From positions 1-64,000 of the forward strand of contig JAMQGV010000048.1 in NCBI GenBank assembly GCA_025994075.1: a stretch of 64,000 nucleotides of DNA. Reading direction: 5' to 3'. The notes beneath the pieces were generated by a model that was given only the letters and a program-made list of their open reading frames with translations, ran no database searches and had not been told where the DNA came from. The position numbers and the translations under genes were made by a program. This stretch comes from Vicinamibacteria bacterium. GTDB lineage: Bacteria; Acidobacteriota; Vicinamibacteria; Fen-336. Shown one piece after another: positions 3,462-58,163 of this stretch. The number at the start of each line of letters is the position of its first letter. The first letter of the stretch is position 1.

Positions 3462-3488
3462 CACCCCTGACAACCGATGTCAGGGGTG
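3462..3488. promoter_or_regulatory. perfect 11-bp-arm palindrome cacccctgaca-N5-tgtcaggggtg (copy 2 of the CCCCTGAC/TGTCAG motif)
   Basis: The inverted repeat is visible directly. It sits between the lipoprotein stop and the WYL regulator start. No T-tract follows it. Confidence 0.45.
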
Positions 3489-3533
3489 CCGCCCTCCTTG
3501 GAACCTCGCAGGGCAGGTGAAAATGCGCCTCGC

Positions 3534-4595
3534 ATGGCACGACAGCCTCGCCGTCCCTCCCGACGAGCCGTCCAGGTGACCCGCCCCGCGCTGCGCCGCC
3601 TGCTGTGGGCGATCGAGCAGTTGCGCGCGCGGCGCCCGCTGACCGCCACCGCCCTCGCCCGCGAGTTCGAAGTCAGCGTGCGGACGGCGTACCGCGATCT
3701 CGACTTCCTGCGCGACGAGTGGCGGGTCCCCCTGGACTTCGACCCGAGCGAGCGGACCTACACCCTGACCGGGCCCATCGGCGCACTGCCCACGGTCACC
3801 CTCAGCGAAGGAGAACTGGTCGCGCTCTACTTCGCCGAGAAGGTGCTCGGGCAGTACCGCGGCACGCCGTTCGAAGGGGACCTCGAGAGCGCGTTTCGCA
3901 AGATCCAGGAACTGCTGCCGCACCTGGTGCCCGTCTCGCCGGAGCAGATCCACGACTACCTGAGCTTCGACCCGGGAGCGCTCCACACGCCGGATGCCGG
4001 CGTCTTCCGCACGCTGCTCCGCGCCTGGCAGCAGCGTCGGCGCGCCCGCGTCCGCTACCGGAGCCTGAGCACCGGCCGCACCGCCACCCGCGATCTCGCG
4101 CCGTACCACGTCGCCAACCACCGCGGCGACTGGTACGTCGCGGCCCACGACCCGGGCCACGACGACGTGCGCCTCTTCGCGCTCCACCGCTGCCTTTCGG
4201 CCGAGCTCACCGACGAGCCGTTCGTGATCCCGGCCGGCTTCCGCTACGAGCGCTTCATGTCCGGCGCCTTCGGCGTGATGCGGGGCGGGACGCCGCGCGA
4301 GGTGGTGGTCCGCTTCGCGGCCCGGCAGGGGCGCTGGATTCGGGAGCGGCAGTGGCACCGATCGGCCCGGGTCGAGGTGCGCCCCGACGGCGACGTGATC
4401 CTGCGGATGCGGGTGGCGGAGACGAGCGGCGTACGCCGCTGGCTGATGCAGTTCGGCTCCGAAGCCGAGGTCCTGGCCCCCGCGGACCTGCGCCGCGAGG
4501 TCGCGAGGGAACTGTCGCGAGCCCTCGGCGCCTACCGCTCGCGGCGGACCACGGCCGCCGCCGAGCGCGAAGCGACGGACGGCTCGGCCGCCTAG
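3534..4595 (+). CDS. WYL-domain transcriptional regulator (HTH-WYL-WCX architecture, YafY/PafBC/BrxR-like)
   Basis: There is an N-terminal HTH (TALAREFEVSVRTAYRDLDFL), a central WYL-type region (HRGDWYVAAHD) and a C-terminal WCX-like region. The start may instead be the GTG at about 3577. Confidence 0.8.
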   Translation: MARQPRRPSRRAVQVTRPALRRLLWAIEQLRARRPLTATALAREFEVSVRTAYRDLDFLRDEWRVPLDFDPSERTYTLTGPIGALPTVTLSEGELVALYFAEKVLGQYRGTPFEGDLESAFRKIQELLPHLVPVSPEQIHDYLSFDPGALHTPDAGVFRTLLRAWQQRRRARVRYRSLSTGRTATRDLAPYHVANHRGDWYVAAHDPGHDDVRLFALHRCLSAELTDEPFVIPAGFRYERFMSGAFGVMRGGTPREVVVRFAARQGRWIRERQWHRSARVEVRPDGDVILRMRVAETSGVRRWLMQFGSEAEVLAPADLRREVARELSRALGAYRSRRTTAAAEREATDGSAA

Positions 4596-4650: not shown

Positions 4651-4671
4651 ATACCTTGCGTGACAAGGTAT
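4651..4671. promoter_or_regulatory. palindrome ATACCTTG-N5-CAAGGTAT in an AT-richer stretch just upstream of padR (candidate PadR operator/promoter)
   Basis: The perfect 8-bp arms are seen directly. The site ends 20 nt before the padR GTG. Confidence 0.45.
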
Positions 4672-4690
4672 CTCGGCATACATTGGTCGT

Positions 4691-5062
4691 GTGACCAGGG
4701 ATGGAGAAGGCGGGGAGGGCCGGCGGAGCACACTCCGCGAGCTGAAGCGGGGCGCGCTGGAACTGGTCGTCCTGCAGCTCCTCGCACCCGGAGAAGCCTA
4801 CGGCTACGAGATCGTGTCCGCGGTGACGGCGCGCTCCCGGGGCGCCCTCGAGATCACCGACGGCACGCTGTACCCGCTCCTCTACCGCCTCGAAAAGGCG
4901 GGATTCGTGGCGACGCGGTGGGAAACCCCGGAGCGTGGAGTGCCGCGCAAGTACTACCGCCTGACGCCGGCGGGTCGCGAAGAGCTGGCGACGCTGGGGC
5001 GCGAGTGGGCGGCGTTTTCGAAGGCGATGGGTCGGCTGCTGCGCGACCAGGAGGGCCGATGA
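4691..5062 (+). CDS. PadR family transcriptional regulator
   Basis: PadR-type winged-helix features are present (ELVVLQLLAPGEAYGYEI, DGTLYPLLYRLEKAGFV). The start is GTG. Confidence 0.85.
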   Translation: MTRDGEGGEGRRSTLRELKRGALELVVLQLLAPGEAYGYEIVSAVTARSRGALEITDGTLYPLLYRLEKAGFVATRWETPERGVPRKYYRLTPAGREELATLGREWAAFSKAMGRLLRDQEGR

Positions 5063-5652
5063 CGGCGGAGGACTACGTCTCGCGGGTGCTGGCGGCGCTG
5101 GCGGCCGGTGTGGCCGATCGCGACTCGATCGCGCTGGAGCTGCGTGGCCACATCGCCGAACGGGTGGGCGAGGGGCAGCCGCTGCCCGAGGTGCTGGCTG
5201 GACTCGGCGATCCGGTGACGCTGGCGAGCTCCTACGGCGGCGCCGTGGCCCTGGAGCCCGCGGCCCACGGGCCCCGCCTCGGCGCCAAGCTCGTCGACGC
5301 GACGCTCGCCGCGACGCTTGCGGTCGGGCTGGCGCTGGCCGGCGCCACGCTCGCTCCGACCGAGGACCTGCAGGGAGTCCTGGTCGTCGCGGCGCTGCTG
5401 GCCGGCGCGTGTGCCTTCTGGGCGGGTACCGCCTGGGCGGAGTACCGATTCGGCACGACGCCGGGCAAGCGGCTCTTCGGACTCCGCGTCGTGTCCGAGG
5501 CCGGCACGCGTCCCTCGGCTGGCGCCGCCGCCGTGCGACAGCTCCCGCTGCTCCTGCAGGTGTTCTGGATCGACGCGGCCTTCGCGCTCTTCACCGAGCG
5601 CCGGCAACGCGCGTTCGAGCTGCTCTCGCACACCCGCGTCGTGCGCGGCTGA
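5059..5652 (+). CDS. RDD family membrane protein
   Basis: ATG overlaps the padR stop (ATGA). The product has hydrophobic segments and an RDD-like region (TTPGKRLFGLRVV). Confidence 0.65.
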   Translation: MTAEDYVSRVLAALAAGVADRDSIALELRGHIAERVGEGQPLPEVLAGLGDPVTLASSYGGAVALEPAAHGPRLGAKLVDATLAATLAVGLALAGATLAPTEDLQGVLVVAALLAGACAFWAGTAWAEYRFGTTPGKRLFGLRVVSEAGTRPSAGAAAVRQLPLLLQVFWIDAAFALFTERRQRAFELLSHTRVVRG

Positions 5653-5658
5653 CGGGCG

Positions 5659-6555
5659 ATGCTCGAGATCCGCGACCTGGTGAAGGTGTATCCCGGGCCG
5701 GTGGCGGCCCTCCACGGCGTCCGTCTCGACGTGCCGCGCGGCCTGTTCGGCTTGCTCGGGCCCAACGGCTCCGGCAAGTCGACGCTGATGAAGATCCTCG
5801 CAGGCCTGCTGGCCCCGACGTCGGGGCGCGTGGTCCTCGACGGCGTCGACGTCACCGATCGCCCGCAACTCGTGTGGCCGCGCCTGGGCTACCTGCCCCA
5901 GGACTTCGGGTTCTACCCGCGGCTCACGGGCGAGGCGATGCTGCGCCACCTGCTGGACCTCAAGGGCGTGGGGGAGCGCAGCCGGCGCAGTCGGATCGCC
6001 CTGGAGCTGCTGCACCGGGTGAACCTGGGGGCCGCTGCGGGCCGCAGGGTCGCGGAGTACTCGGGCGGCATGCGGCAGCGGCTGGGCATCGCCCAGGCGA
6101 TCGCCGGCGACCCGGAACTGCTGATCGTCGACGAGCCCACCGCGGGGCTCGACCCCGAGGAGCGGCTGCGTTTCCATCACCTGCTGGCCGAGCTGGCCGA
6201 GACGCGGACGGTGCTGTTGTCGACCCACCTCGTCGAGGACGTCGCCATGCTCTGCCCGCGCTTTGCCGTCCTGCGCTTCGGTCGTCTCCTCCTGGAGGGC
6301 ACGCCGGAGCAGGCCCGCCGCGCGATCCCGGGCCGCCTCGCGGAGGGCCTCGTCGCGCGCGATGCGCTGGAGTCGCTGCGGAGGACGGCGCGCGTCACGC
6401 AGCACCTGCTGTTCGAGGGTCGCCATCGGGTGCGGTTGCACGTGCCCGAGGGGCCGCTCCCGCCGGACTTCGTCGAGGTGCCGGCCACGCTCGAGGACGC
6501 CTACATGCTGCTCACCCTCGACGACGCCGCGCGGACCCTGCCGGCCTCGGCGTGA
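5659..6555 (+). CDS. ABC transporter ATP-binding protein
   Basis: Walker A GPNGSGKST, signature SGGMRQR and Walker B LLIVDEPTAGLD are present. Confidence 0.9.
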   Translation: MLEIRDLVKVYPGPVAALHGVRLDVPRGLFGLLGPNGSGKSTLMKILAGLLAPTSGRVVLDGVDVTDRPQLVWPRLGYLPQDFGFYPRLTGEAMLRHLLDLKGVGERSRRSRIALELLHRVNLGAAAGRRVAEYSGGMRQRLGIAQAIAGDPELLIVDEPTAGLDPEERLRFHHLLAELAETRTVLLSTHLVEDVAMLCPRFAVLRFGRLLLEGTPEQARRAIPGRLAEGLVARDALESLRRTARVTQHLLFEGRHRVRLHVPEGPLPPDFVEVPATLEDAYMLLTLDDAARTLPASA

Positions 6556-6608
6556 GCGGGCCCCGGGTCGAGCACGGCGCCGCAGCCGGTCGAACTCTGT
6601 CCGTTGCA

Positions 6609-9600
6609 ATGCGCGAGGCGCAGTTCCAGTTCGCGAGCCCCCTGCTGTGGGCGCTGGCGGCTGCCGCCGCTTTCGCGACGATCGCGGTCAACCCCGCGGC
6701 CATGGTCCCCACCGGACAGGCTGCGGTCGGCGGCGTCGCGCCGTTCGCCAATGCGCCGCTGGCCCTCGCCCAGGCGATGGCGCTTTCCGGCCTGATCTTC
6801 TACACCTTCCCGGCGACGCTGCTGGGCGGGCAGGCCGCGCTGCGAGACGACGAGGCCGGAGTGGGACCGCTGTTGCACGCGACTCCGCTGCGCGCGCGCG
6901 AGTACGTGGCAGGCAAGCTCGCGGGTGTCCTGCTGGCCCTGGGAGCCGTCGCGTTCGGCCATGCGCTGCTGATCGCGAGCTGGCACCTCGCCTCCGCCTG
7001 GCTCGGCGCGCGTCTGGCGATCGGCCCGATCTCACTCGTCGCCTACGCGCTGCCACCGCTGTTGTTCGTCGGCCCCGGCGTCGCACTTTGCGCGGTGGTC
7101 GGCTTCGCGCTCGGCGAACGAACACGAAGCCCGCTCGCCGTCTACGCCTCGGCCTCGGCGCTCTTCCCGCTGGGACTGGCCGGGCTCGCGGCGCGCCCAC
7201 CCGGCGTGCTCGCCGGCTGGGTCGACGGCTTCTTCGCCCTCGTCGACCCGTGGGGCGCACGCTGGCTCTCGGGGACTGTCTTCGCGGTCGACCGCGGGGC
7301 AGCGTGGTTCAACGACGCGGCGATCCCGTTCGACCTTGCTTTCTGGGGCAGCCGCGCGGTGATCGCCGCCGGCTGTGCCGTGATCGTGGTCGCCGCGATA
7401 CGGCACTGCGAGCGAGTGGTTCGGGGCCGCGAGGCGAGTCGACCCGCGCCGGCGGGCGCGATGACACCGAGGGAACCCGCGGCGGTCGTTCCGCTGCAAC
7501 CCCTGGGCCCACCGGCGACGATCTGCCCTCCGGGCGCGCTCGAGGCCAGCCTCGTCCTGGCTCGGACCGAACTGGCTCAACTCGTCCGTCAGCCGGGCAC
7601 GTGGATCTTCGCGGCGTTCCTGTGCCTCCTGGTCCTCGAACACGCAGGCGCCTCGCGCGGCGTGCTCGACAGCCCCGTCCGCTGGACCGCGGGCCTTCTT
7701 GCGACGAGCCTGGTTCCGACCGTCACCGCGATGGGCGCGCTGTTCGTCCTCTTCTCGCTGAGTGACGCGCTCGACCGCGGAAGTCGCACGCGGACCGTCG
7801 CCGTGGTCCACGCCACCGCCGTGCCGACGTCCGCGCTCCTGCTGGGACCCCTGCTCGCGAGCCACGTGGCGCTCGCGGGGTTGCTCGCCGGTGGTGCGCT
7901 GGTGGCGCTCGCCTCTTCCACCGGTGGCGCGGCGTGGCCGCTCCCGTTCGTGTGGGGCCTCCTGCTGGCTCCGAGCTTCGCGGCCTGGGGCGCGGCCGTG
8001 CTGCTCGGCTGGGCGTTCACCCACGACCGCGCGAAGACGATCGCGATCGGGCTGGGCCTGCTGGCGCTGACCGCCGCGGCGTACCTGCAGGATCGGCTCG
8101 ACTGGTGGTCCAACTGGCCGCTGTGGGGCGTGTTGCGCTGGAGCGAATCGGGCCCGGCGCTCGATATGGCCCGCGAGCCGCTGCTGCTGAACCGCGTGCT
8201 CTTCACGGCGCTGGCCGTGGCGCTCACGATCATCGCGATCGGGCGCTTCCCGCGACGGGAGGCCGATCGGCTTCGCGCGCGCCCCGGGATGCTGCGGGCT
8301 CCCGGGTCGCGCATGGCGCTCTCTCTCGCCTTCCTGGCCGGAGGACTGCTCGTGCACGGCGTCGCCCGGAGCACCGACGGGAGCGCGGCGCGGACGCGCG
8401 ACGCCGAGTACTGGCGGCTGAACGTGGCCGCCTGGCCCGGAGCGCCAGTGCCGACGATCCAGAGGCTCGACGCCCGCATCGACCTTCACGCCCCGAGCGC
8501 GGGCCGCGTTCACGGCACGGTCCGGGTCTCAGGGCGCTACCGACTCCGCAACGAGAGTCCGGCCGCACTCGGGGCGCTCCCGTTCACGCTCGGGCCCGCG
8601 GCCCGATCGATTCGGTGGACGCTGGACGGTGCCTCCATCGCCGCGGAGGACCGCGCTGGGCTCTTCGTGCTTCGCCCCGCCATGCCGCTCCCGGTCGACG
8701 CGACGGTCGAGGCCGGCTTCGACTACGACCTGTACCTGGGCGACGGCTACCGTCGCGGCGTCGAGGCCGTCGAGTTCGTGCTGCCTTCTTCGGTGCAACT
8801 CGACACGCTCGGCCGCCACCTGCTGCCCGTGCCCGGCTTCGTGGCTGGCGTCGGAGAGTCGGCGGAGCGACGGCACGAGCCGGCACCCGGGCCGTCGGCC
8901 CCTCCCGGCCAGGCCCGGGCGCCGATCCAGGGCAACCCGCGACCCTTCCGCACCCGCCTCGAGATCACTGCGCCCTCCGGCTTGTCCGTCGTGGCGACGG
9001 GCGAGAAGACGGCCGAGTTCGAGCGCGACGGTCGCCGCGTCACGGTGTGGGAGAGTGGCCCTCAGGGAGTGCGCTTCGTGAGCCTCGCCGCCGGCCGCTG
9101 GACGGCGCGGTACGGCGACGGCGTGGCCGTTTACCACCACCCGTCACTCGGGCACACGGCCGCGGAAGTGCTGGGGACGCTGGCTTCGGCGCGGAGGCGT
9201 TACTCCGAGTGGTTCGGGGCGTACCCCTGGTCGCGACTGCGGCTCGCCGTGATGCCGGATCACGCGACGCGCGCGCGCTCGTTCCCGACGCTCATCCACT
9301 TCTCGGAGGGCATGGGGCTCTTCTCCGGTGACGGCCCGGGTGCCCCCGCCGCGACGATCGTCGCCGTTCACGAGGCCGCGCATCAGTGGTGGGGGCACCT
9401 GCTCACGCCCGCGGCGGCGCCCGGGGCCGACGTCCTGCTCGAGGGCCTGGCGCACTACTCGACGCTGCTCTGGCTCGAAGCGGAGCGCGGGCCCGAATCG
9501 AGGCAGGCGTTCGCGCGGCATCTCGAGGAGCAGTACGTCTCGCGACGGCGGGTCGACCTGGAGCGTCCCCTGGTCGCGCTCGCCGCGGGCACCGATCACG

Positions 9601-10082
9601 AGCGCTCGTCCGCGGAGAACCGCGGCGCCTGGGCCTTCTGGATGCTCGATCGCCAACTCGGCCGCGAGCGCCTGCTCGCCGGCCTGCGGGAGCTGACCGA
9701 GCGCTATCGAGGCGGTCCCCACCATCCCACCCTGGAGGACGCGCTGGCACTACTGCGGGTGCGAGCCCACGACGCTGCGGCGTTCGACCATGTCGCGGAC
9801 CTCTGGTTCCGCAGCACTGAGCTGCCCGAACTGGAGCTGAAGGTCGTGCGCTCCGGAGCGTTCGCGCCGGGCCGTCACGACCTCGTCGTCGCGGTGGCAG
9901 GAGCGGCTGGCCTCGAACTCACGCTCGCCGCGTTCGGCGCCGCGGGCGAGCGCAGCGATGCGCCGCTGCAGGCGGGAATCGCGCGCTGGGAGCTGCCGTT
10001 CGCTCCGCTCCGCGTCGTCGCCGACCCGGACCTGCAAGTGCTCCAGCTCCACCGCAGCCGTGCCGCGGTGGAGCTGCACTGA
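6609..10082 (+). CDS. ABC-2 type permease fused to a C-terminal M1-family (aminopeptidase N-like) zinc peptidase domain
   Basis: The product is about 1157 aa. The N-terminal half is multi-span hydrophobic. The C-terminal half carries the M1 motif HEAAHQWWGH...LLEGLAHY (HExxH-x18-E). The track shows this as part of a longer ORF 5409-10082. Confidence 0.75.
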   Translation: MREAQFQFASPLLWALAAAAAFATIAVNPAAMVPTGQAAVGGVAPFANAPLALAQAMALSGLIFYTFPATLLGGQAALRDDEAGVGPLLHATPLRAREYVAGKLAGVLLALGAVAFGHALLIASWHLASAWLGARLAIGPISLVAYALPPLLFVGPGVALCAVVGFALGERTRSPLAVYASASALFPLGLAGLAARPPGVLAGWVDGFFALVDPWGARWLSGTVFAVDRGAAWFNDAAIPFDLAFWGSRAVIAAGCAVIVVAAIRHCERVVRGREASRPAPAGAMTPREPAAVVPLQPLGPPATICPPGALEASLVLARTELAQLVRQPGTWIFAAFLCLLVLEHAGASRGVLDSPVRWTAGLLATSLVPTVTAMGALFVLFSLSDALDRGSRTRTVAVVHATAVPTSALLLGPLLASHVALAGLLAGGALVALASSTGGAAWPLPFVWGLLLAPSFAAWGAAVLLGWAFTHDRAKTIAIGLGLLALTAAAYLQDRLDWWSNWPLWGVLRWSESGPALDMAREPLLLNRVLFTALAVALTIIAIGRFPRREADRLRARPGMLRAPGSRMALSLAFLAGGLLVHGVARSTDGSAARTRDAEYWRLNVAAWPGAPVPTIQRLDARIDLHAPSAGRVHGTVRVSGRYRLRNESPAALGALPFTLGPAARSIRWTLDGASIAAEDRAGLFVLRPAMPLPVDATVEAGFDYDLYLGDGYRRGVEAVEFVLPSSVQLDTLGRHLLPVPGFVAGVGESAERRHEPAPGPSAPPGQARAPIQGNPRPFRTRLEITAPSGLSVVATGEKTAEFERDGRRVTVWESGPQGVRFVSLAAGRWTARYGDGVAVYHHPSLGHTAAEVLGTLASARRRYSEWFGAYPWSRLRLAVMPDHATRARSFPTLIHFSEGMGLFSGDGPGAPAATIVAVHEAAHQWWGHLLTPAAAPGADVLLEGLAHYSTLLWLEAERGPESRQAFARHLEEQYVSRRRVDLERPLVALAAGTDHERSSAENRGAWAFWMLDRQLGRERLLAGLRELTERYRGGPHHPTLEDALALLRVRAHDAAAFDHVADLWFRSTELPELELKVVRSGAFAPGRHDLVVAVAGAAGLELTLAAFGAAGERSDAPLQAGIARWELPFAPLRVVADPDLQVLQLHRSRAAVELH

Positions 10083-10088
10083 GCGCCG

Positions 10089-12131
10089 TCAGCGCAGGAC
10101 GTCGATCTTCGCCAGGGCCGCGAGGTACTCGGCGACCAGGTCGATCGGCACGGGGCCCAGGATGGCCGACAGCGCGTCGCGGATCTCGCGCACCGTGCGG
10201 CGGCCGTCGACGAGGTTGAGGGCCTCGTAGTCGTAGCCGCCGCCCCCGAAGGCGGGCAGGCGCAGGGCCGCCGTGGCCGGGCGCCCGAGCTTGTCGGGGA
10301 GGTACTCGTAGCCGAACGCCGACATCGGCCCGCGCAGCGCCGGGTTGCGCGCGTAGACCCGCCTCTCGGCGGCGGTGGCGGGCGGCGGCGGAGGGGCGGG
10401 AGCGCCGCCCAGCAGCGCGGAGAGCTGCGCCGAGAAGCGGTCGGCGCGGGCGCGGGCCGCGGCGTCGAGCGGCGCGAACGAGGCCATCGACTCGAACACG
10501 CCGCGCTCGTACGCGAGCGCGAAGCGGGTCAGGTTCGCGGCCTCGCCGGCGTCGGCGAGTCGAGCCCGGCGCTCCAGCGTCGCCGCGGCGCGGCGCAGCG
10601 CCTGGCCCTCGAGCTTCGCCTGCATCGCGGGCACGTCGTCCGCGCCGAAGTCCGCGAGCACGAGCGCGGACGCGGCGGCGAGGAACCCCGCGCGCTTGAG
10701 CTTGGTCGGGTCGATGTTCGCGGCGCGATCGGCGGTCGTGTGGATGTAGCGGTCGGGCCAGTCGTTGAAGTAAAGCGACGGAATCCGCCACGAGCCCTCG
10801 GCGTAGACCTGGTGGTCGCTGCCCGTCGAGAACTCCGCGAGGTCGGCCTGCAGCGGCTCGCGGCCACCCTCGGGCGCGACGACGGGGAAGTCGGCGGCCC
10901 CGGTCGACGCGAAGGCGAGTGTCTCGGCGTTGAGCCAGCGCGCCAGCTCTTCCGCGACGTCGTGGACGAACGACGGCAGGCTCTTCGGCCCGCGGGTGAC
11001 GTGGAAGACAGCCTTCGTCTCCGGACCGCCGCCGACCATGTCGAGGTGGATCGCCGCCTTCAGGCGCTGCGCCCAGTCGCGCCGGCCCTCCAGCAGCGCG
11101 AGCGTGCCCTCGATCTCGGGCGGGAACACGAAGCGCAGCGTGCGCGCCGGGCGCGGGATCGTCCCGTCCTTCACGAGGCGGGCGAGCGAGCGCGCCGCCT
11201 CCAGGATGGCGGCGCAGCCGCTGGCGTTGTCGTTGGCGCCCGGGCGCGGGTGATCGAGGTGGCAGGAGAAGACGATCTCGCCGGCGCGCAGCTTCGGGTC
11301 GGCGCCGAGGAGGGCGGCGCTCGGGATGTCGTAGCTCGCCGCCTGCTGCACCGCCTCGACGCGGGCGTCGAGCCAGACGCTCTCGCCGCGGGCGAGCCGC
11401 GCCTGCCAGCCGCGCGCGCGGCCGGGCGAGACCATGAACGCGAAGGTGCGCTCCGCCTCGGGGGCGAACGTGTCGAGGTGCCCCCAGCGGATCAGCGACG
11501 CGTCTTCGCCCCACCAGGCGGTGCGCTGGTTCTGGGCCCAGCTCACGATGCCCGCCGCGCCGAAGCGGCCCACGGCGAGGGCGGCGACGGCTTCCGGCTG
11601 GCTCGAGGTCAGGACCAGGCGGCCGCGCACCTCGCGGCCGGCGTAGTCCTGCTCGCGGGTGCCGGCGCCGACGTCGACGAGTTCCGCGCGCGCCGCCCCG
11701 GAGTGCGAGTCCTGGGCGAGCGTCAGCGGCTGGGCCTCCCAGGAGGCGACGCGCTCGAGGCGCTCGCGGGTCCCGTCGGCGCGCGCCGCGCCGAGCTCCC
11801 ACAGCTCCGCGAACGCCGGGTTCCAGGCCGGCCGGGAGCGCTGGGTGCCGTAGAAGATCGTGCCGTCGGCGGGCAGTTCCTCGAGCTTCACCTCCTCGAG
11901 GCCGGCCGCCTTCAGCCGCTCGACCACGTGGAGCGCGGCGGCGCGGAAGCCCGCCGAGGCGCGCATCCGGTGCTGGCGCGCGAGGAACTCGAGCTCGCGC
12001 TTGGCCTGCTCGCCCGAGACCTCCCGCTCGAGCGCCTCGGCGGACGGGCGGGGGAGCAGCGGGGGAGCCTCGGCGGCGAGTGGGGAAGCGAGCCCGAGGG
12101 CGGCGATCGAGACGGCGGCGGCGATGCGCAT
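10089..12131 (-). CDS. secreted M28 family zinc peptidase
   Basis: There is a signal peptide, and M28 motifs are present (HLDHPRPGANDNASG). Confidence 0.8.
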   Translation of the reverse strand: MRIAAAVSIAALGLASPLAAEAPPLLPRPSAEALEREVSGEQAKRELEFLARQHRMRASAGFRAAALHVVERLKAAGLEEVKLEELPADGTIFYGTQRSRPAWNPAFAELWELGAARADGTRERLERVASWEAQPLTLAQDSHSGAARAELVDVGAGTREQDYAGREVRGRLVLTSSQPEAVAALAVGRFGAAGIVSWAQNQRTAWWGEDASLIRWGHLDTFAPEAERTFAFMVSPGRARGWQARLARGESVWLDARVEAVQQAASYDIPSAALLGADPKLRAGEIVFSCHLDHPRPGANDNASGCAAILEAARSLARLVKDGTIPRPARTLRFVFPPEIEGTLALLEGRRDWAQRLKAAIHLDMVGGGPETKAVFHVTRGPKSLPSFVHDVAEELARWLNAETLAFASTGAADFPVVAPEGGREPLQADLAEFSTGSDHQVYAEGSWRIPSLYFNDWPDRYIHTTADRAANIDPTKLKRAGFLAAASALVLADFGADDVPAMQAKLEGQALRRAAATLERRARLADAGEAANLTRFALAYERGVFESMASFAPLDAAARARADRFSAQLSALLGGAPAPPPPPATAAERRVYARNPALRGPMSAFGYEYLPDKLGRPATAALRLPAFGGGGYDYEALNLVDGRRTVREIRDALSAILGPVPIDLVAEYLAALAKIDVLR

Positions 12132-12135
12132 GGGC

Positions 12136-13074
12136 TCAGGGCTCCAGCTCGAGCGAGTAGTTCGTGAGGAACACCTGGAAGGCCGAGACCTCCAGCATGT
12201 CCTGGCCGACGAAGCGGATCGTGTGCGAGTCGACGCGCTGGACCCCGCGCAGGTAGGCGGCGACTTCGGCCGGGCGGTAGTTCTTGAAGGTGACGTCGAG
12301 CGTGACCGGGGTCGTGACCCGGAACGGCTCGAAGCCGGCGCGTCGCGCCAGGGCCCGCTTCACGCCCTCGGCGATCCGGGCGCACGCCGCGGCGGGCGTG
12401 AGCGTCTCCGCCGCGTGGAACCCGAGGTGGCGCTTGGTCTCGACGGCCTCGACGTCCCCGAGTTGCGCGCGCACCTCGGCCACCGCCGCGTCGTCGCCGG
12501 AGACGAACACCACCGGGACGCCGAAGTGCCCCGCGACGGCCGCGTTGAAGGAGCCCTCGCTGGCCACCTGGCCGTTGAGCTTCACGGAGTGCAGCCGCGC
12601 GCTCGAGAACGTGTGGGCGCGGACGCCCTGCGGGTTGTCGGTCGACGAGTGGTAACCGACGAAGAGCGCCGCGTCGAAGCTCGCGTCGAGGCCGCCCATC
12701 ATGCCGAGCGGCCGCGGCCACGAGCGCACGATCCGGACGTCGGGCGGGAACTGCTCGATCAGCAGGTTCTGGCCGTTGCCGTGGGAATCGGCGACGACGA
12801 TCTCGGTGGCGCCGGCCTCCTTCGCGGCCGTCACCGCCGCCAGCGCCTCCTTCGTCATGAACTCGCGGAAGCGGGCGTACTCGAACCCCGAGGGCCCGAG
12901 CTGGTCGGGGCTGACGACCCCGGCGACGCCCTCCATGTCGACGGAGACGAAGACCTTCAGCTTGGCGGGCGGCGCCGCGGAGGCGGCGGGACCGGCGAGC
13001 AGGAGCGCGACGAGAGCGAGGACACGATTCAAGGGCGGGCCTCCGGGAAGGCCCGATTGTAGGTGAGGCGGCAC
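12136..13074 (-). CDS. M55 family D-aminopeptidase (DppA-like)
   Basis: DMEGVAG and ADSHGNG motifs typical of M55/DppA are present, along with a signal-like N-terminus. Confidence 0.75.
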   Translation of the reverse strand: MPPHLQSGLPGGPPLNRVLALVALLLAGPAASAAPPAKLKVFVSVDMEGVAGVVSPDQLGPSGFEYARFREFMTKEALAAVTAAKEAGATEIVVADSHGNGQNLLIEQFPPDVRIVRSWPRPLGMMGGLDASFDAALFVGYHSSTDNPQGVRAHTFSSARLHSVKLNGQVASEGSFNAAVAGHFGVPVVFVSGDDAAVAEVRAQLGDVEAVETKRHLGFHAAETLTPAAACARIAEGVKRALARRAGFEPFRVTTPVTLDVTFKNYRPAEVAAYLRGVQRVDSHTIRFVGQDMLEVSAFQVFLTNYSLELEP

Positions 13075-14650: not shown

Positions 14651-14725
14651 TGGCTGAAGGAGCAGGAGTCGAACCTGCGACCCGCGAATCCGTGTTCGCT
14701 GCTCTACCCACTGAGCTATCCGTAC
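14651..14725 (-). tRNA. tRNA-like element, probably a tRNA pseudogene or scar (canonical D-arm and T-arm, encoded CCA, acceptor stem does not pair, anticodon loop 1 nt short)
   Basis: The reverse complement reads GTACGGA-TA-GCTCAGTGGGTAGAGC-A-GCGAA-CACGGA-TTCGC-GGGTC-GCAGGTTCGACTCCTGC-TCCTTCA-G-CCA. Confidence 0.45.
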
Positions 14726-52632: not shown

Positions 52633-55050
52633 TCAGAACGTGGTCCCGACGGCGAACTTGAACGTGGTCTTGGGCTGGAACTCGTCGCGGTGCGGGTTCC
52701 AGGCGTAGATCAGCCGGAACGGCACGTTGAGCACGGGCATCACGAAGCGCAGCTCGGCACCGGTCGAGGTGCGGAGCTTCCGGACCTCGAAGCGCTCGCC
52801 CTCCAGGAACGCCTGGCCCGCGTCGAAGTACAGCAGCGCGCGAAGCGGCCCCGCGATGTCCCAGTAGTACTCGGCGTTGAAGAGGAACGACTTGTTGCCG
52901 CCGATGGCGTAGCCGTTGGCGTCGCGCGGGCCGACGGTGCGCAGGTTGTAGCCGCGGATCTGGTTCTCGCCGCCCATGAAGAAGCGCTGGTAGAACGGCA
53001 GCGTCGGCAGCCCCGTCTCCGGGTTGATGGCCGCGGTCTCGTTGAACGGCCGGATGAACGACACCTCCGCGCGCAGGCCCAGCGCGGTCTTGCGCATGTG
53101 CGGCTTGTAGTAGATGGCCTCGAAGATCGGCCGCACGTAATCCAGCGTGCCGCCCAGCGGGCCGCCGGTGAGCTGGGTCGTGGCCGTCACCTTCCAGCCG
53201 GAGCGCGGCGTGTACGGGTTGTCGACCGTGTTGTAGACGAGCGACGGCGTCAGCCTGCTCTCGCGGCGCTTGCCGAGGTCGTCGAACAGGAACGGGTTGT
53301 TGAACAGCGGGATCGTGGGGTCGAACAGCCCCGGGTCGTCCAGCACCTCTTCCGAGTTCTCGATCTTGATCACCTCGTACGCGTACGAGGCGAACAGCCG
53401 GGTGAAGCGGCCGAGCGGGATGCCGGTCGTGAGGCTGAACCCGGTGCGGTCGTCGACGTAGCCCTGCAGGTTCTCGCCGGCGAAGGTCTGGTACTCGAGG
53501 CGCCGCCGGTAGACGTCGAAGCCCGCCGTGATCGGGCGGTCCAGGAAGTAGGGCTCGGTGACCGCGAGCTGGTAGACCTTGGTGCGGCGCCCGCTCTGCG
53601 CCGAGATCTGGAAGGTCTCGCCGAGGCCGAGGAAGTTCGAGGTCGAGAAGGCGAGGTTGATGAAGGTGCCTTCCAGCCCCGAGACGCCGCCGCCGAAGGT
53701 GAACTGGTTGCGGTTCTGCTCCTCGACCTTGAAGGTGACGTCGAGCTTGTCGTCGCCGAGCGGGCTCTGGGTGAGCTGCGGGATGCCCTCCATCGGCTTG
53801 AAGTAGCCGAGCTGGTTGATGCGCTTGATCGAGAGCTTCAGCAGTTCGGTGTTGAAGACGTCGCCCTCGGTCATGTAGACCTCGCGGCGGATCACCTTGT
53901 CGCGGGTCGTCTCGTTGCCGGTGAAGTTGATGCGGCCGACGAAGTAGCGCTTGTCCTCGTCCATCTTGAGCACGAGGTCGACGACCTTGCGCTCCGGGTC
54001 GGGCGTGCGCTGGGTCAGCGCGGTCCACTGGAAGTAGCCCTGCGCGCCGTAGGCGTCGCGCAGCTTCTCGTAGCCCTTCTTGATCCGCGACTCCTTGTAG
54101 ACGTCGCCGGGCTTGATCTTGAAGATCGGCAGCACCAGGTCGGGCTGGAACACCGTCATCCCGTCGATCTTCACCTCGCCGACGCGGTACTGGTCGCCTT
54201 CGATGACGGGGATCTCGAGGTGCGCCCACTTGATCGGCTTCTTCTTGAAGAAGCCCGACTTGCCGTCGGTGTAGGTGATCTTCGGCTCGCCCACCTGGGC
54301 CGAGACGTAGCCGTGGTTCAGGTAGAACTCGCGGATGTTCTCCTGGTCCTCGCCCCACTTCTCGCGGGTGTAGGTGGTCTTGCCCAGCAGCCAGGAGAAG
54401 TTCCAGAAGCCGGTCTTCTTGATCTTCTTCATCTGGCGCCGCAGGCGGCCGTCGCCGAAGTGCTCGTTGCCCTCGAACGCGATCGACTTGACCTTGGCCT
54501 TGGGCCCCTCGTCGACCGTGAAGGTGACCTGGACGCCGGCGCCGCCCAGGGTGCGCGCCGTGTGGGTGACGGTCGCGAACGGCCGCCCCTTCTCGTCGAG
54601 CATCTCGCGGATGATCGCCTCGACGCGGCGGGCCCTGGCCAGGTCGTAGAAGCTGTCGATCCGGAGCTGCGCCTCCTTCTCCTTCAGCTTGTCGTCGATG
54701 TTCGAGGTCGTGATCGCCTTGATGCCGCGGTAGTCGACGATCTGGACCCGCTTGCGCTCCTGGACCCGGAACACGACGACCTTGCCGCGGCGCCCGTCGA
54801 CCACCTGCAGCGACATGTCCTCCAGGAAGCCGGTGTCCCACAGGCGCCGGAAGTCCTCCTTGAGCTTGATCTCGTCGAGCGCCTCGCCCGCCTTCGTGTG
54901 GACGTAGAAGAGCAGCGTGTCCTTCTGCAGGAACTGGTTGCCCTGGAGGTCGACGCGCTCGATCAGCGGAGCCTCGGGCTCGACCTGGGCGTACAGGGCG
55001 CGCCCGTAGACGAGGGCCGCGAGGGCCGCGGCCCGGACCGTGCGCTTCAT
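52633..55050 (-). CDS. bamA: outer membrane protein assembly factor BamA
   Basis: POTRA repeats are followed by an Omp85 barrel that ends in F. The start overlaps the clpC stop (ATGA). Confidence 0.9.
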   Translation of the reverse strand: MKRTVRAAALAALVYGRALYAQVEPEAPLIERVDLQGNQFLQKDTLLFYVHTKAGEALDEIKLKEDFRRLWDTGFLEDMSLQVVDGRRGKVVVFRVQERKRVQIVDYRGIKAITTSNIDDKLKEKEAQLRIDSFYDLARARRVEAIIREMLDEKGRPFATVTHTARTLGGAGVQVTFTVDEGPKAKVKSIAFEGNEHFGDGRLRRQMKKIKKTGFWNFSWLLGKTTYTREKWGEDQENIREFYLNHGYVSAQVGEPKITYTDGKSGFFKKKPIKWAHLEIPVIEGDQYRVGEVKIDGMTVFQPDLVLPIFKIKPGDVYKESRIKKGYEKLRDAYGAQGYFQWTALTQRTPDPERKVVDLVLKMDEDKRYFVGRINFTGNETTRDKVIRREVYMTEGDVFNTELLKLSIKRINQLGYFKPMEGIPQLTQSPLGDDKLDVTFKVEEQNRNQFTFGGGVSGLEGTFINLAFSTSNFLGLGETFQISAQSGRRTKVYQLAVTEPYFLDRPITAGFDVYRRRLEYQTFAGENLQGYVDDRTGFSLTTGIPLGRFTRLFASYAYEVIKIENSEEVLDDPGLFDPTIPLFNNPFLFDDLGKRRESRLTPSLVYNTVDNPYTPRSGWKVTATTQLTGGPLGGTLDYVRPIFEAIYYKPHMRKTALGLRAEVSFIRPFNETAAINPETGLPTLPFYQRFFMGGENQIRGYNLRTVGPRDANGYAIGGNKSFLFNAEYYWDIAGPLRALLYFDAGQAFLEGERFEVRKLRTSTGAELRFVMPVLNVPFRLIYAWNPHRDEFQPKTTFKFAVGTTF

Positions 55051-57464: not shown

Positions 57465-57479
57465 AGGGGCTCGGGAATT

Positions 57480-58159
<680 letters not shown>

Positions 58160-58163
<4 letters not shown>

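What the first reader, a model, noticed from the sequence alone, without database searches (positions are those of the whole stretch)
4691..10082. PadR - RDD - ABC ATPase - (ABC-2 permease fused to an M1 aminopeptidase) operon with 4-nt overlaps
Four genes are chained by ATGA overlaps or short gaps. The last encodes a polypeptide of about 1157 aa. Its N-terminal half is a multi-span ABC-2-type permease and its C-terminal half carries a complete M1 zinc-peptidase signature (HEAAHQWWGH followed by LLEGLAHY). Covalent fusion of an exporter permease to an aminopeptidase N-like catalytic domain suggests coupled transport and processing of a peptide substrate under PadR control. Possible roles are a bacteriocin or peptide resistance pump, or a maturation-secretion device. 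The physiological substrate is unknown.
Basis: partly seen in the sequence, partly recalled or inferred. Interest (0 to 1): 0.6.

Follow-up and report, generated by a model that had tools for sequence, protein, structure and literature searches.

The report
ABC exporter fused to periplasmic M1-like peptidase
The four-gene operon is real, but its striking last gene, an ABC-2 exporter permease fused to an M1-like zinc peptidase, belongs to a large family that is already catalogued and has no known function; this copy has a PadR/HAAS membrane-signalling switch in front of it and has lost a catalytic tyrosine.

Summary
The genes are PadR (4691-5062), a HAAS+RDD membrane protein (5059-5652), a DrrA-like ABC ATPase (5659-6555) and one uninterrupted gene, 6552-10082. 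That gene starts at GTG 6552, giving 1176 aa rather than 1157.

The fusion protein has two tandem ABC-2 (type V exporter) domains of six helices each. A 13th helix follows, then a roughly 570-aa M1-fold domain predicted to lie outside the cytoplasmic membrane.

The architecture is not new. It is TCDB family 3.A.1.145 (2013), and NCBI names it "ABC transporter permease/M1 family aminopeptidase". A profile search found 1,995 50%-identity cluster representatives at E<=1e-30. The ATPase plus fusion pair is the only conserved module.

"Complete M1 signature" overstates the case. HExxH...E is invariant, but the family lacks the Glu of GxMEN, and this lineage replaces the catalytic Tyr (YxKG becomes AENRG) and two other family-invariant residues.

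PadR plus HAAS-RDD is a portable regulatory pair: PadR lies directly upstream of HAAS-RDD in 55 of 56 testable loci. It is joined to this module only sporadically, though in three lineages. A conserved palindrome (4651-4671) is a candidate operator.

The function is untested. The best guess is stress-induced extraction of membrane-associated peptides, coupled to periplasmic binding or cleavage.

The parts
4651..4671 (.). Perfect palindrome ATACCTTG-cgtga-CAAGGTAT in an AT-rich island about 20 nt upstream of padR. It is a candidate PadR operator (autoregulation); function is inferred, not shown.
   Evidence: sequence; the only match in 64 kb at up to 2 mismatches, against 0.02 expected by chance. 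The same palindrome lies upstream of the padR orthologue in L081, and a near-copy in L082, whose fusion protein is only 44% identical and whose flanks differ.
4691..5062 (+). PadR-family winged-helix transcription regulator, 123 aa.
   Evidence: PF03551, E 2.3e-24. TIGR03433 padR_acidobact, E 2.6e-27 (below its cut-off). The start codon position agrees with the L082 orthologue.
5059..5652 (+). Membrane partner of PadR, 197 aa: an N-terminal cytoplasmic HAAS domain (aa 5-56, with the GDP kink motif) followed by an RDD multi-TM domain (aa 68-184). ATGA overlap with padR; AGGAGG lies 7 nt upstream of the start.
   Evidence: PF22564 HAAS, E 4e-9; PF06271 RDD, E 1e-21. (junction). PadR lies directly upstream in 55 of 56 testable metagenome loci encoding HAAS-RDD relatives. 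The HAAS-PadR pair is described in PMC11237479.
5659..6555 (+). ABC ATPase (nucleotide-binding subunit) of DrrA/GldA/NodI type, 298 aa. Expected to form a homodimer on the single permease polypeptide.
   Evidence: PF00005, E 9e-30. TIGR01188 drrA, E 1e-54; all ATPase motifs present (signature YSGGM); an orthologue (40-68% identity) lies immediately upstream of the fusion gene in about 70 of 80 genome loci.
6552..10082 (+). Fusion gene, 1176 aa: two ABC-2 transmembrane domains, a 13th TM helix and an M1-like zinc-peptidase domain. Starts at GTG, with a GTGA overlap onto the ATPase stop codon.
   Evidence: Full-length collinear homologues; 1,995 50%-identity cluster representatives at E<=1e-30.
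6573..7436 (+). N-terminal connecting helix and transmembrane domain 1 (TM1-TM6, aa 8-295), including the ABC-2 cytoplasmic motif LRDDEAGVGPLLHATPLRAREYVAGK after TM2.
   Evidence: helices. TMD-only model matches Rv1217c at E 5e-5, TM-score 0.49-0.60. K+R bias.
7437..7535 (+). Low-complexity linker between the two transmembrane domains (aa 296-328). Predicted cytoplasmic and poorly conserved.
   Evidence: pLDDT below 50; 44% identity to P0002 against 79-85% in the flanking domains; a mean of 9.3 K+R per sequence in the family.
7536..8246 (+). Second connecting helix and transmembrane domain 2 (TM7-TM12, aa 329-565).
   Evidence: Weak, non-significant sequence similarity of aa 326-500 to PmtD (E 0.08).
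8247..8369 (+). Arg-rich cytoplasmic loop (FPRREADRLRARPGMLRA) and TM13 (aa 584-606), which carries the chain to the outer face of the membrane.
   Evidence: this loop has the second-highest K+R density of the loops tested in the family (0.27; 6.2 K+R against 1.7 D+E). TCDB also counts 13 TMS for the homologue Q1D520.
8463..9137 (+). N-terminal beta domain of the M1 fold (aa 638-862).
   Evidence: strands. Foldseek alignments of about 580-600 columns to ERAP2, IRAP and ERAP1.
9141..9812 (+). Thermolysin-like catalytic domain (aa 864-1087). HEAAH is at 9369-9383 and the third zinc ligand, E964, at 9441-9443. The GxMEN-equivalent RARSF is at 9270-9284. AENRG, in place of the YxKG catalytic-Tyr motif, is at 9612-9626.
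   Evidence: PF01433, 22.4 bits, below the cut-off; alignment to ERAP2 in correct register (GAMEN 334-338, HELAH 370-374, Y455); conservation counts.
9834..10079 (+). C-terminal beta-sandwich (aa 1095-1176). The protein ends here, so the helical domain IV that caps the active site in long M1 aminopeptidases is absent.
   Evidence: secondary structure; matches to M1 chains stop within the catalytic domain. A solved short M1 protein, 6A8Z/6IFF (474 aa), matches at E 2e-9.

Best explanation
This is a member of the widespread, functionally uncharacterised family TC 3.A.1.145, which NCBI names "ABC transporter permease/M1 family aminopeptidase".

Architecture. Two copies of the ATPase (5659-6555) are expected to sit on one permease polypeptide. 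That polypeptide holds both ABC-2 (type V exporter) transmembrane domains, as in Mycobacterium tuberculosis Rv1217c-Rv1218c. A 13th helix then places a truncated M1-fold zinc domain on the periplasmic side, directly above the exporter's outer gate. The domain has the beta, catalytic and beta-sandwich parts but no capping domain IV.

Inferred mechanism. ATP binding collapses an outer-leaflet cavity and expels a membrane-associated, probably peptidic, substrate towards the tethered zinc domain, which binds or cleaves it.

Regulation in this lineage. The two-gene module has been placed behind a PadR repressor and its membrane partner HAAS-RDD. PadR probably binds the palindrome at 4651-4671, and the HAAS-RDD protein relieves repression when it senses a membrane signal. 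On this reading the operon is an inducible envelope-defence or clean-up device.

What is shown and what is inferred:
- Shown: gene structure, family membership, both folds, conservation of the zinc site, the ATPase partnership, and the co-occurrence of the PadR-HAAS pair.
- Predicted: the 13-TM topology with the M1 domain outside.
- Inferred: the substrate, the coupling of export to hydrolysis, the operator function and the inducing signal.
For: Family and architecture:
- Q1D520 is described as a 13-TMS ABC-2 domain plus a Peptidase M1 domain, TC 3.A.1.145.1 (PMC3924187).
- NCBI product names confirm the family.
- The profile search found 19,327 hits at E<=1e-3 and 1,995 at E<=1e-30. Most of the top 150 are full-length proteins of about 1130-1270 aa, the rest shorter fragments.
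- At least 482 loci occur in species-representative genomes of Acidobacteriota, Eisenbacteria, Planctomycetota, Gemmatimonadota, Myxococcota, Bacteroidota and Proteobacteria.

Core module:
- The ATPase lies immediately upstream in about 70 of 80 loci.
- No other neighbour is conserved.

Folds:
- The M1 domain matches ERAP2 and IRAP at E about 1e-16.
- The transmembrane part matches Rv1217c (8K1M-P) at E 5e-5 to 1e-4, then NosY, PmtD, ABCG2 and CcmB.
- Rv1217c is a fused-TMD type V exporter with an outer-leaflet cavity and a periplasmic gate (PMC11406275).

Topology:
- Hydropathy and AlphaFold helices give 13 TM segments.
- K+R density alternates between 0.12-0.31 (inside loops) and 0.04-0.11 (outside loops) across 123 members.

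Active site:
- H940, E941, H944 and E964 are 100% conserved, and E919 is 98% conserved.
- The catalytic domain is among the best-conserved parts of the protein: the most conserved against P0004, P0005 and P0006, and second to TMD1 against P0002 and P0003.

Regulation:
- The four-gene cassette recurs in L081 (79% identity) and in L082 (44% identity, different flanks).
- An analogous cassette with a different HAAS sensor occurs in L025 and L033: PadR, HAAS+PF13796, with or without Toastrack, then ATPase and fusion.
- The palindrome is conserved.
- HAAS-PadR has been proposed as an alternative to two-component envelope signalling (PMC11237479).
Against: - No member of the family has been characterised, and no relevant paper was found. 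The transported molecule is therefore unknown.
- The family lacks the Glu of GxMEN.
- This lineage has also replaced the catalytic Tyr (Y1022E) and the family-invariant residues H866 (to L) and E900 (to V). The domain here may be a poor peptidase or not one at all.
- PadR-HAAS is absent from most loci of the family. Most HAAS-RDD pairs are followed by unrelated genes: the ATPase or fusion follows in only 2 of 34 testable loci. The regulatory link says little about the family's general role.
- No consensus sigma-70 promoter was found.
Confidence: 0.4

Rival explanations
1. Mechanotransmission rather than transport. As in NosDFY (and functionally like FtsEX or MacB-type systems), the ABC-2 domains would move no substrate across the membrane. 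Instead, cytoplasmic ATP hydrolysis would drive conformational changes in the attached periplasmic M1 domain, switching on or gating a periplasmic protease or binding activity.
For: - NosY of NosDFY is the second-best structural match to each half of the transmembrane part (E 8e-3, TM-score 0.62-0.70 normalised to NosY).
- Homologues hit PF12679, and JGI annotates them as "multi-copper enzyme maturation permease", which is the NosY COG.
- The M1 domain lacks its own capping domain IV, so something else must gate the cleft.
- The covalent tether through TM13 is conserved in all members.
- That NosDFY uses ATP to drive a periplasmic partner is my own knowledge of the NosDFY cryo-EM work, not a tool result.
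Against: - The best structural match is a genuine efflux pump, Rv1217c.
- The NosY similarity is at fold level only (15-20% identity).
- No interdomain geometry could be examined.
Confidence: 0.25
2. One reading: a ribosomal peptide (bacteriocin or RiPP) is exported, and the fused peptidase trims its leader or N-terminus during export.
For: - Exporters of the ABC-2 type handle peptides in other systems: PmtCD shows fold similarity and a weak sequence hit at E 0.08.
- The ATPase also resembles lantibiotic-protection ATPases (TIGR03740, E 7e-37).
Against: - No precursor, modification or immunity genes are conserved next to the module in 80 genome loci or in the metagenome loci.
- Flanking genes differ between lineages.
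- The wide, housekeeping-like distribution, sometimes with two copies per genome (L001 and L040), is unlike a biosynthetic gene cluster accessory.
- The N-terminus-anchoring Glu of GxMEN is missing.
Confidence: 0.07
3. In this particular lineage the M1 domain is a pseudo-peptidase. It keeps its zinc site and fold but has lost catalysis, and serves only as a periplasmic binding or cap domain of the exporter.
For: - Y1022 becomes E (Tyr in 103 of 123 members). It aligns with ERAP2 Y455.
- E900 becomes V (Glu in 115 of 123) and H866 becomes L (95% His). These changes occur only in the window, P0001, P0002 and P0003.
- Loss of this Tyr strongly reduces peptidase activity in characterised M1 enzymes (my own knowledge of LTA4H and aminopeptidase A mutants).
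Against: - All three zinc ligands and the catalytic Glu are retained.
- The catalytic domain remains under purifying selection: it is 81-82% identical to P0002 and P0003, on a par with TMD1 (83-85%) and above the other domains.
- About 16% of the family carries other residues at the Tyr position, so the Tyr may be dispensable in this scaffold.
Confidence: 0.2

Closest known systems
TCDB family 3.A.1.145 (e.g. Myxococcus xanthus Q1D520, TC 3.A.1.145.1), which is NCBI's "ABC transporter permease/M1 family aminopeptidase"
   Same: Same architecture and size: about 1200 aa, 13 TMS and a C-terminal Peptidase M1 domain, with a separate ATPase gene upstream. Full-length collinear homology.
   Different: - This copy is a divergent branch: at most 44% identity to anything outside its own small clade, and about 20-25% to the named proteobacterial members.
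- It falls below the Pfam M1 cut-off.
- It has lost the catalytic Tyr and two other family-invariant residues.
- It sits behind a PadR/HAAS-RDD pair.
Rv1217c-Rv1218c of Mycobacterium tuberculosis (PDB 8K1M-8K1P), a type V ABC exporter that mediates rifampicin resistance
   Same: - Best structural match to the transmembrane part.
- Both transmembrane domains lie on one polypeptide, with a homodimeric ATPase encoded by a separate adjacent gene.
- Non-canonical Y-S-x-G signature in the ATPase (YSGGM here, YSKGN there).
   Different: - Rv1217c has no 13th helix and no extracytoplasmic enzyme domain.
- Only 16-18% identity over the structural alignment; no detectable sequence match.
NosDFY (PDB 7O0Y, 7ZNQ, 7QBA), an ABC-2 complex that works with the periplasmic protein NosD in nitrous oxide reductase maturation
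   Same: ABC-2 (PF12679-type) permease fold. A periplasmic protein module sits on the transporter (and the Pfam and JGI names).
   Different: - NosD is a separate beta-helix protein, not an M1 peptidase.
- NosY is a 6-TM homodimer.
- There are no nos genes here.
M1 aminopeptidases (ERAP1, ERAP2, IRAP, PepN) and the short two-domain M1 protein 6A8Z/6IFF
   Same: The beta-domain plus thermolysin-like catalytic fold. HExxH followed by WW/WF-G and a distal xEG Glu ligand. The YxKG Tyr is present in 84% of the family.
   Different: - 19 rather than 18 residues between HExxH and the Glu ligand.
- No Glu at the GxMEN position.
- No helical domain IV.
- Membrane-tethered through a transporter.
- In this protein the catalytic Tyr is Glu.
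HAAS-PadR signalling pair (PMC11237479)
   Same: A standalone PadR wHTH gene directly followed by a membrane protein with an N-terminal HAAS domain carrying the GxP kink (LGDP here). The L025 relative also has Toastrack.
   Different: That paper does not mention an RDD domain as the fused membrane module, nor an ABC-2/M1 output (no occurrences of "RDD" or "peptidase").

Membership tests
TC 3.A.1.145 / "ABC transporter permease/M1 family aminopeptidase" | A single polypeptide of about 1200 aa with an N-terminal ABC-2 membrane part of 13 TMS | tested here: met
   1176 aa. Hydropathy and two AlphaFold models give 13 helices. The fold matches type V exporters.
TC 3.A.1.145 / "ABC transporter permease/M1 family aminopeptidase" | A C-terminal hydrophilic Peptidase M1-type zinc domain | tested here: met
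   Foldseek matches to ERAP2 and IRAP at E about 1e-16. Profile match to PDB M1 chains at E 5e-13. HExxH...E is invariant.
TC 3.A.1.145 / "ABC transporter permease/M1 family aminopeptidase" | End-to-end sequence homology with named members | tested here: met
   tblastn covers residues 3-1156 in loci of Rudaea, Vitiosangium, Massilia and others. Rudaea relatives carry the NCBI name. 122 full-length proteins align collinearly.
TC 3.A.1.145 / "ABC transporter permease/M1 family aminopeptidase" | A cognate ABC ATPase encoded immediately upstream | tested here: met
   5659-6555 overlaps the fusion start. Orthologues lie upstream in about 70 of 80 loci.
Peptidase family M1 (aminopeptidase N type) | Zinc-binding motif HExxH-x18-E | tested here: met
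   H940, E941, H944 and E964 are present, with 19 residues of spacing, and are 100% conserved.
Peptidase family M1 (aminopeptidase N type) | GxMEN exopeptidase motif, whose Glu anchors the substrate's free N-terminus | tested here: not met
   ERAP2 GAMEN 334-338 aligns to RARSF (aa 907-911). The family consensus is [YF]A[QT][GSA][FY], with no Glu in 122 of 123 members.
Peptidase family M1 (aminopeptidase N type) | Catalytic Tyr in the YxKG motif, which stabilises the transition state | tested here: not met
   ERAP2 Y455 aligns to E1022 (AENRG). Tyr is present in 103 of 123 family members but is E in the window and P0001-P0003, and R in P0004.
Peptidase family M1 (aminopeptidase N type) | Pfam PF01433 at or above its gathering score | tested here: not met
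   22.4 bits against a cut-off of 27.7. Relatives P0004-P0007 do carry precomputed PF01433 hits.
Peptidase family M1 (aminopeptidase N type) | Aminopeptidase activity | not testable with these tools
   This needs an enzyme assay of the purified domain.
ABC-2 / type V ABC exporter | 6-TM domains without domain swapping, an N-terminal connecting helix, and external helices between TM5 and TM6 | tested here: met
   The TMD-only model matches Rv1217c, NosY, PmtD, ABCG2, ABCG5/G8 and CcmB. Connecting helices are at aa 8-27 and 329-346, and short helices lie in the TM5-TM6 loop. The confidence is that of a pLDDT-71 model.
ABC-2 / type V ABC exporter | Pfam ABC2_membrane family hit | tested here: inconclusive
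   The window protein has no hit at E<=0.01. Homologues P0004-P0006 and the Rudaea group have precomputed PF12698, PF12679 or PF12730 hits.
HAAS-PadR signalling pair | A standalone PadR wHTH gene adjacent to a gene for a protein with a HAAS domain fused to a membrane or sensor domain | tested here: met
   PF03551 and PF22564+PF06271 in overlapping genes. The adjacency holds in 55 of 56 testable loci.
HAAS-PadR signalling pair | HAAS-dependent control of PadR DNA binding | not testable with these tools
   Only a conserved palindrome upstream of padR was found.

The most novel reading that the evidence does not exclude
The family could be a new kind of ATP-powered periplasmic protease. A type V ABC engine would either feed membrane-embedded peptides (antimicrobial peptides, signal-peptide remnants) into, or mechanically gate, a covalently tethered, uncapped M1 zinc site. 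That would make energy-dependent proteolysis available outside the cytoplasm. In a few lineages the machine would be wired to a PadR/HAAS membrane-stress switch.
Probability: 0.2. Interest if true: 0.7.

Novelty: new member of a known kind. Interest (0 to 1): 0.35.

Why it matters
ATP is absent from the periplasm, so enzymes there that depend on cytoplasmic ATP hydrolysis (FtsEX-activated hydrolases, NosDFY, LolCDE, MacB) are of mechanistic interest. A transporter with a zinc peptidase welded to its outer face is a natural candidate for another such machine. The family is very common in soil and aquatic diderm bacteria, yet it has no assigned function.

This locus adds three concrete handles for experiments:
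- a predicted outside location for the peptidase domain;
- a recurrent link to PadR/HAAS membrane signalling, with a candidate operator, which suggests inducing conditions to try;
- natural variants that lack the catalytic Tyr, which could separate binding from cleavage.

The architecture itself has been listed since 2013 and is routinely annotated, so the finding is not a discovery of a new system.

Tried and rejected
- **Word-index protein search with the window protein.** It gave only 10 hits, which wrongly suggested rarity. The exhaustive profile search and the genome scan showed a large family.
- **Literature searches for a characterised member.** Searches found nothing on function. One search found only the TCDB-based survey (read), which catalogues the architecture without characterising it.
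- **Looking for a conserved third partner.** I clustered all ORFs within 4 kb upstream of the ATPase in the loci where one search found it. Only lineage-local synteny appeared, for example in Oxalobacteraceae. The downstream M28 and M55 peptidase genes are shared only with the 79% relative L081, not with L082, so I rejected them as functional partners.
- **Sequence-level link of the transmembrane part to solved structures.** Only non-significant PmtD hits at E 0.08-0.23. This was resolved at fold level instead.
- **Whether the HAAS-RDD pair is specific to this module.** Rejected: only 2 of 34 testable loci have the ATPase or fusion downstream.
- **Promoter and terminator consensus scans.** None found.
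- **ATG 6609 as the start codon.** Rejected in favour of GTG 6552.
- **Frameshift or chimera as the origin of the fusion.** Rejected, because the fusion is collinear with more than 120 full-length homologues.
- **Interdomain geometry.** This could not be examined, because model coordinates are not exposed by the tools.


Full report
**1. What is in the sequence**

The region lies in a 73-74% GC stretch, where long spurious ORFs abound on all frames. Gene calls therefore rest on homology.

Four same-strand genes are real:
- PadR, 4691-5062 (PF03551, E 2e-24).
- A 197-aa membrane protein, 5059-5652, with an N-terminal HAAS domain (PF22564, E 4e-9) and an RDD domain (PF06271, E 1e-21).
- An ABC ATPase, 5659-6555 (PF00005, E 9e-30). 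Its best NCBIfam hits are DrrA, GldA, NodI and the lantibiotic-protection type. All catalytic motifs are present.
- A long gene ending at 10082.

The junctions are ATGA (PadR/RDD), a 6-nt gap (RDD to ATPase) and GTGA (ATPase/fusion).

The long gene starts at GTG 6552, not at ATG 6609. Homologues have a conserved N-terminal helix upstream of that ATG (A1). The 98%-identical P0001 is 1176 aa. There is no other in-frame start between the two codons. Residues 8-27 are modelled as a confident helix. The product is therefore 1176 aa. Residue numbers below follow this numbering; subtract 19 to get the numbering that starts at the ATG.

**2. The fusion is genuine and common**

The frame is uninterrupted and aligns end to end with homologues.

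- The word-index search returned only 10 relatives. This reflects that method's limit.
- A profile of seven sequences, searched exhaustively, found 19,327 proteins at E<=1e-3 and 1,995 at E<=1e-30. These are representatives of 50%-identity clusters. Most of the best 150 are full-length proteins of about 1130-1270 aa; the rest are shorter fragments.
- A scan of one genome per species found at least 482 encoding loci. They fall in Acidobacteriota, Eisenbacteria, Planctomycetota, Gemmatimonadota, Myxococcota, Bacteroidota, Gamma- and Betaproteobacteria and others.
- The architecture is in the literature. A 2013 transporter survey describes M. xanthus Q1D520 (1200 aa, 13 TMS, C-terminal Peptidase M1 domain) as the founder of TC 3.A.1.145 (PMC3924187).
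- NCBI names relatives "ABC transporter permease/M1 family aminopeptidase". JGI calls them ABC-2 permease or "multi-copper enzyme maturation permease".
- I found no experimental study of any member.

**3. Anatomy of the fusion protein**

Hydropathy and two AlphaFold models agree. The full-length model has pLDDT 67.5 and the TMD-only model pLDDT 71.2. The layout is:
- a connecting helix, then TM1-TM6 (aa 8-295), with the typical ABC-2 cytoplasmic motif after TM2;
- a disordered, poorly conserved, basic linker (aa 296-328);
- a second connecting helix and TM7-TM12 (aa 329-565);
- an Arg-rich loop;
- TM13 (aa 584-606);
- a soluble domain running to the C-terminus.

Across 123 family members the K+R density alternates between presumed inside loops (0.12-0.31) and outside loops (0.04-0.11). 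The TM12-TM13 loop is among the most basic, at 0.27. This supports an N-in, 13-TM topology with the C-terminal domain outside. It is a prediction, not a measurement.

The TMD-only model matches, in order:
- Rv1217c (8K1M-P, E 5e-5 to 1e-4, TM-score 0.49-0.60);
- NosY of NosDFY;
- PmtD, ABCG2, ABCG5/G8 and CcmB.

Rv1217c is the closest in organisation as well. Both TMDs are on one chain, the ATPase is a separately encoded homodimer, the fold is type V, and it has an outer-leaflet cavity and a periplasmic gate (PMC11406275).

**4. The M1-like domain**

Foldseek on the full model returns ERAP2, IRAP and ERAP1 at E about 1e-16 over about 580-600 columns. The profile hits the same PDB chains at E 5e-13, and a short two-domain M1 protein (6A8Z/6IFF) at E 2e-9.

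The domain has the N-terminal beta part, the thermolysin-like catalytic part and a small terminal beta-sandwich. It lacks the helical capping domain IV.

The ERAP2 alignment is in correct register: I recounted GAMEN 334-338, HELAH 370-374 and Y455. On that alignment:
- H940, E941, H944 and E964 are the zinc and catalytic residues. They are invariant in 123 members.
- GAMEN aligns to RARSF. The family consensus there is [YF]A[QT][GSA][FY], with no Glu.
- The catalytic Tyr aligns to E1022 (AENRG). The family keeps Tyr in 103 of 123 members.

The window, P0001, P0002 and P0003 have also changed two other family-invariant residues, H866 to L and E900 to V. The catalytic domain nevertheless remains among the best-conserved parts: 81-82% identity to P0002 and P0003, on a par with TMD1 at 83-85%, and it is the most conserved domain against the more distant P0004-P0006. 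It is not decaying.

Pfam scores the window protein below the M1 threshold, at 22.4 against 27.7 bits.

So "M1 fold with an intact zinc site" is shown. "Complete M1 aminopeptidase signature" is not.

**5. What travels with it**

Only the ATPase does. An orthologue at 40-68% identity lies directly upstream in about 70 of 80 genome loci. Clustering of all upstream ORFs found no other widely shared neighbour. Gene tables for three further relatives show unrelated flanks.

The convergent M28 and M55 (DppA) peptidase genes downstream (10089-13074) are shared only with the 79% relative L081, not with the 44% relative L082. I treat them as local synteny.

**6. The regulator pair**

PadR plus HAAS-RDD precede the module in three places:
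- the window;
- L081;
- L082, whose fusion protein is only 44% identical and whose flanks differ.

Two Phycisphaerae-like loci have an analogous cassette with a different sensor. L033 has PadR, HAAS+PF13796 "Sensor", ATPase and fusion. L025 has the same with an added Toastrack protein.

This matches the HAAS-PadR pair proposed as an alternative to two-component envelope-stress signalling (PMC11237479). That paper mentions neither RDD nor this output.

In the other direction, a metagenome scan with HAAS-RDD found 69 loci. PadR is directly upstream in 55 of 56 testable cases. The ATPase or fusion follows in only 2 of 34, and the other downstream genes are diverse. The pair is therefore a portable switch that was attached to this module a few times.

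A perfect 8+5+8 palindrome (4651-4671) lies about 20 nt upstream of padR. It is unique in the window (0.02 expected) and is conserved in L081 and nearly so in L082. It is a candidate PadR operator.

No consensus sigma-70 promoter or intrinsic terminator was detected.

**7. How it most likely works**

Shown: a type V ABC engine with a tethered M1-fold zinc domain, most probably periplasmic. In this lineage it sits behind a membrane-linked PadR switch.

Inferred (confidence about 0.4): by analogy with Rv1217c and PmtCD, the exporter takes a hydrophobic or amphipathic substrate from the outer leaflet. It expels the substrate at its periplasmic gate, where the uncapped zinc cleft binds or cleaves it. 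The PadR/HAAS link suggests induction by membrane perturbation, which fits a defence or clean-up role.

Rivals:
- a NosDFY-like mechanotransducer that gates the peptidase without transporting anything (0.25);
- a catalytically dead cap domain in this lineage (0.2), which could hold alongside either of the mechanisms above;

**8. Verdict**

This is a divergent new member of a known, uncharacterised family. The modest new points are:
- the predicted outside location of the peptidase domain;
- the family-wide absence of the GxMEN Glu;
- the lineage-specific loss of the catalytic Tyr;
- the recurrent but sporadic coupling to PadR/HAAS, with a candidate operator.

Interest 0.35.

Noticed in passing
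window 4651-4671: Perfect palindrome ATACCTTG-N5-CAAGGTAT in an AT-rich island just upstream of padR. It is unique in the window and conserved upstream of padR orthologues in L081 and, with two changes, in L082. Candidate PadR operator. The possible -10 (TACATT, 4679-4684) would put the transcription start at or near the GTG, so the mRNA may be leaderless.
   Followed up: partly
window 3477-4595 (+): A WYL/WCX-domain HTH regulator (PF08279, PF13280, PF25583) lies directly upstream of the operon on the same strand. It is also present in L081 and L086 but not in L082, so it is probably unrelated local synteny.
   Followed up: partly
window 10089-13074 (-): Two further peptidase genes converge on the operon: an M28 family peptidase (680 aa, PF04389) and a DppA-type D-aminopeptidase (M55, PF04951, E 3e-95). 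They are shared with L081 only. Three peptidase genes cluster within 6.5 kb.
   Followed up: partly
window 14659-14721 (-): Rfam tRNA model hit (39.6 bits, model positions 5-66 of 71) that ARAGORN does not call. It may be a truncated or unusual tRNA, or a tRNA-like remnant, in the gap between 14226 and 15665.
   Followed up: no
window 55047-58163 (-): A second ABC ATPase (30% identical to the operon's ATPase, about 57360-58163) lies next to an 805-aa ORF (55047-57464) that may be its permease. There is no second copy of the fusion gene in the window.
   Followed up: no
L025 4026-7894 and L033 245-2562: Phycisphaerae-like loci carry PadR and HAAS+PF13796 "Sensor" in front of the ATPase and fusion pair; L025 also has a Toastrack (DUF4097) protein. 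This is an independent joining of a HAAS-PadR switch to the same module. L033 is labelled Bacteroidia, but its proteins closely resemble those of L025, so the bin label may be wrong.
   Followed up: partly
L086 (JAANMU010000021.1, 155695-167344): A public metagenome-assembled contig of 167 kb encodes a HAAS-RDD protein 99% identical to the window's, with the same PadR, ATPase, fusion and WYL genes around it. It is probably the same or a sister organism. No species-representative genome has a fusion protein more than 40% identical, so the lineage is poorly represented.
   Followed up: no
L134 2426-4960 and L124 1751-3850: Other PadR/HAAS-RDD pairs are followed by different envelope proteins. 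One is an 844-aa duplicated FtsX/MacB-like permease candidate. Another is a 699-aa secreted protein that looks like an S9 peptidase from its N-terminal sequence. Neither was scanned against Pfam.
   Followed up: no
L001 and L040 (same Thermoanaerobaculaceae MAG); L019 and L036 (same Gemmatimonadetes MAG): Some genomes carry two paralogous copies of the fusion gene on different contigs. L001 gave no ATPase hit within the 8 kb upstream.
   Followed up: no
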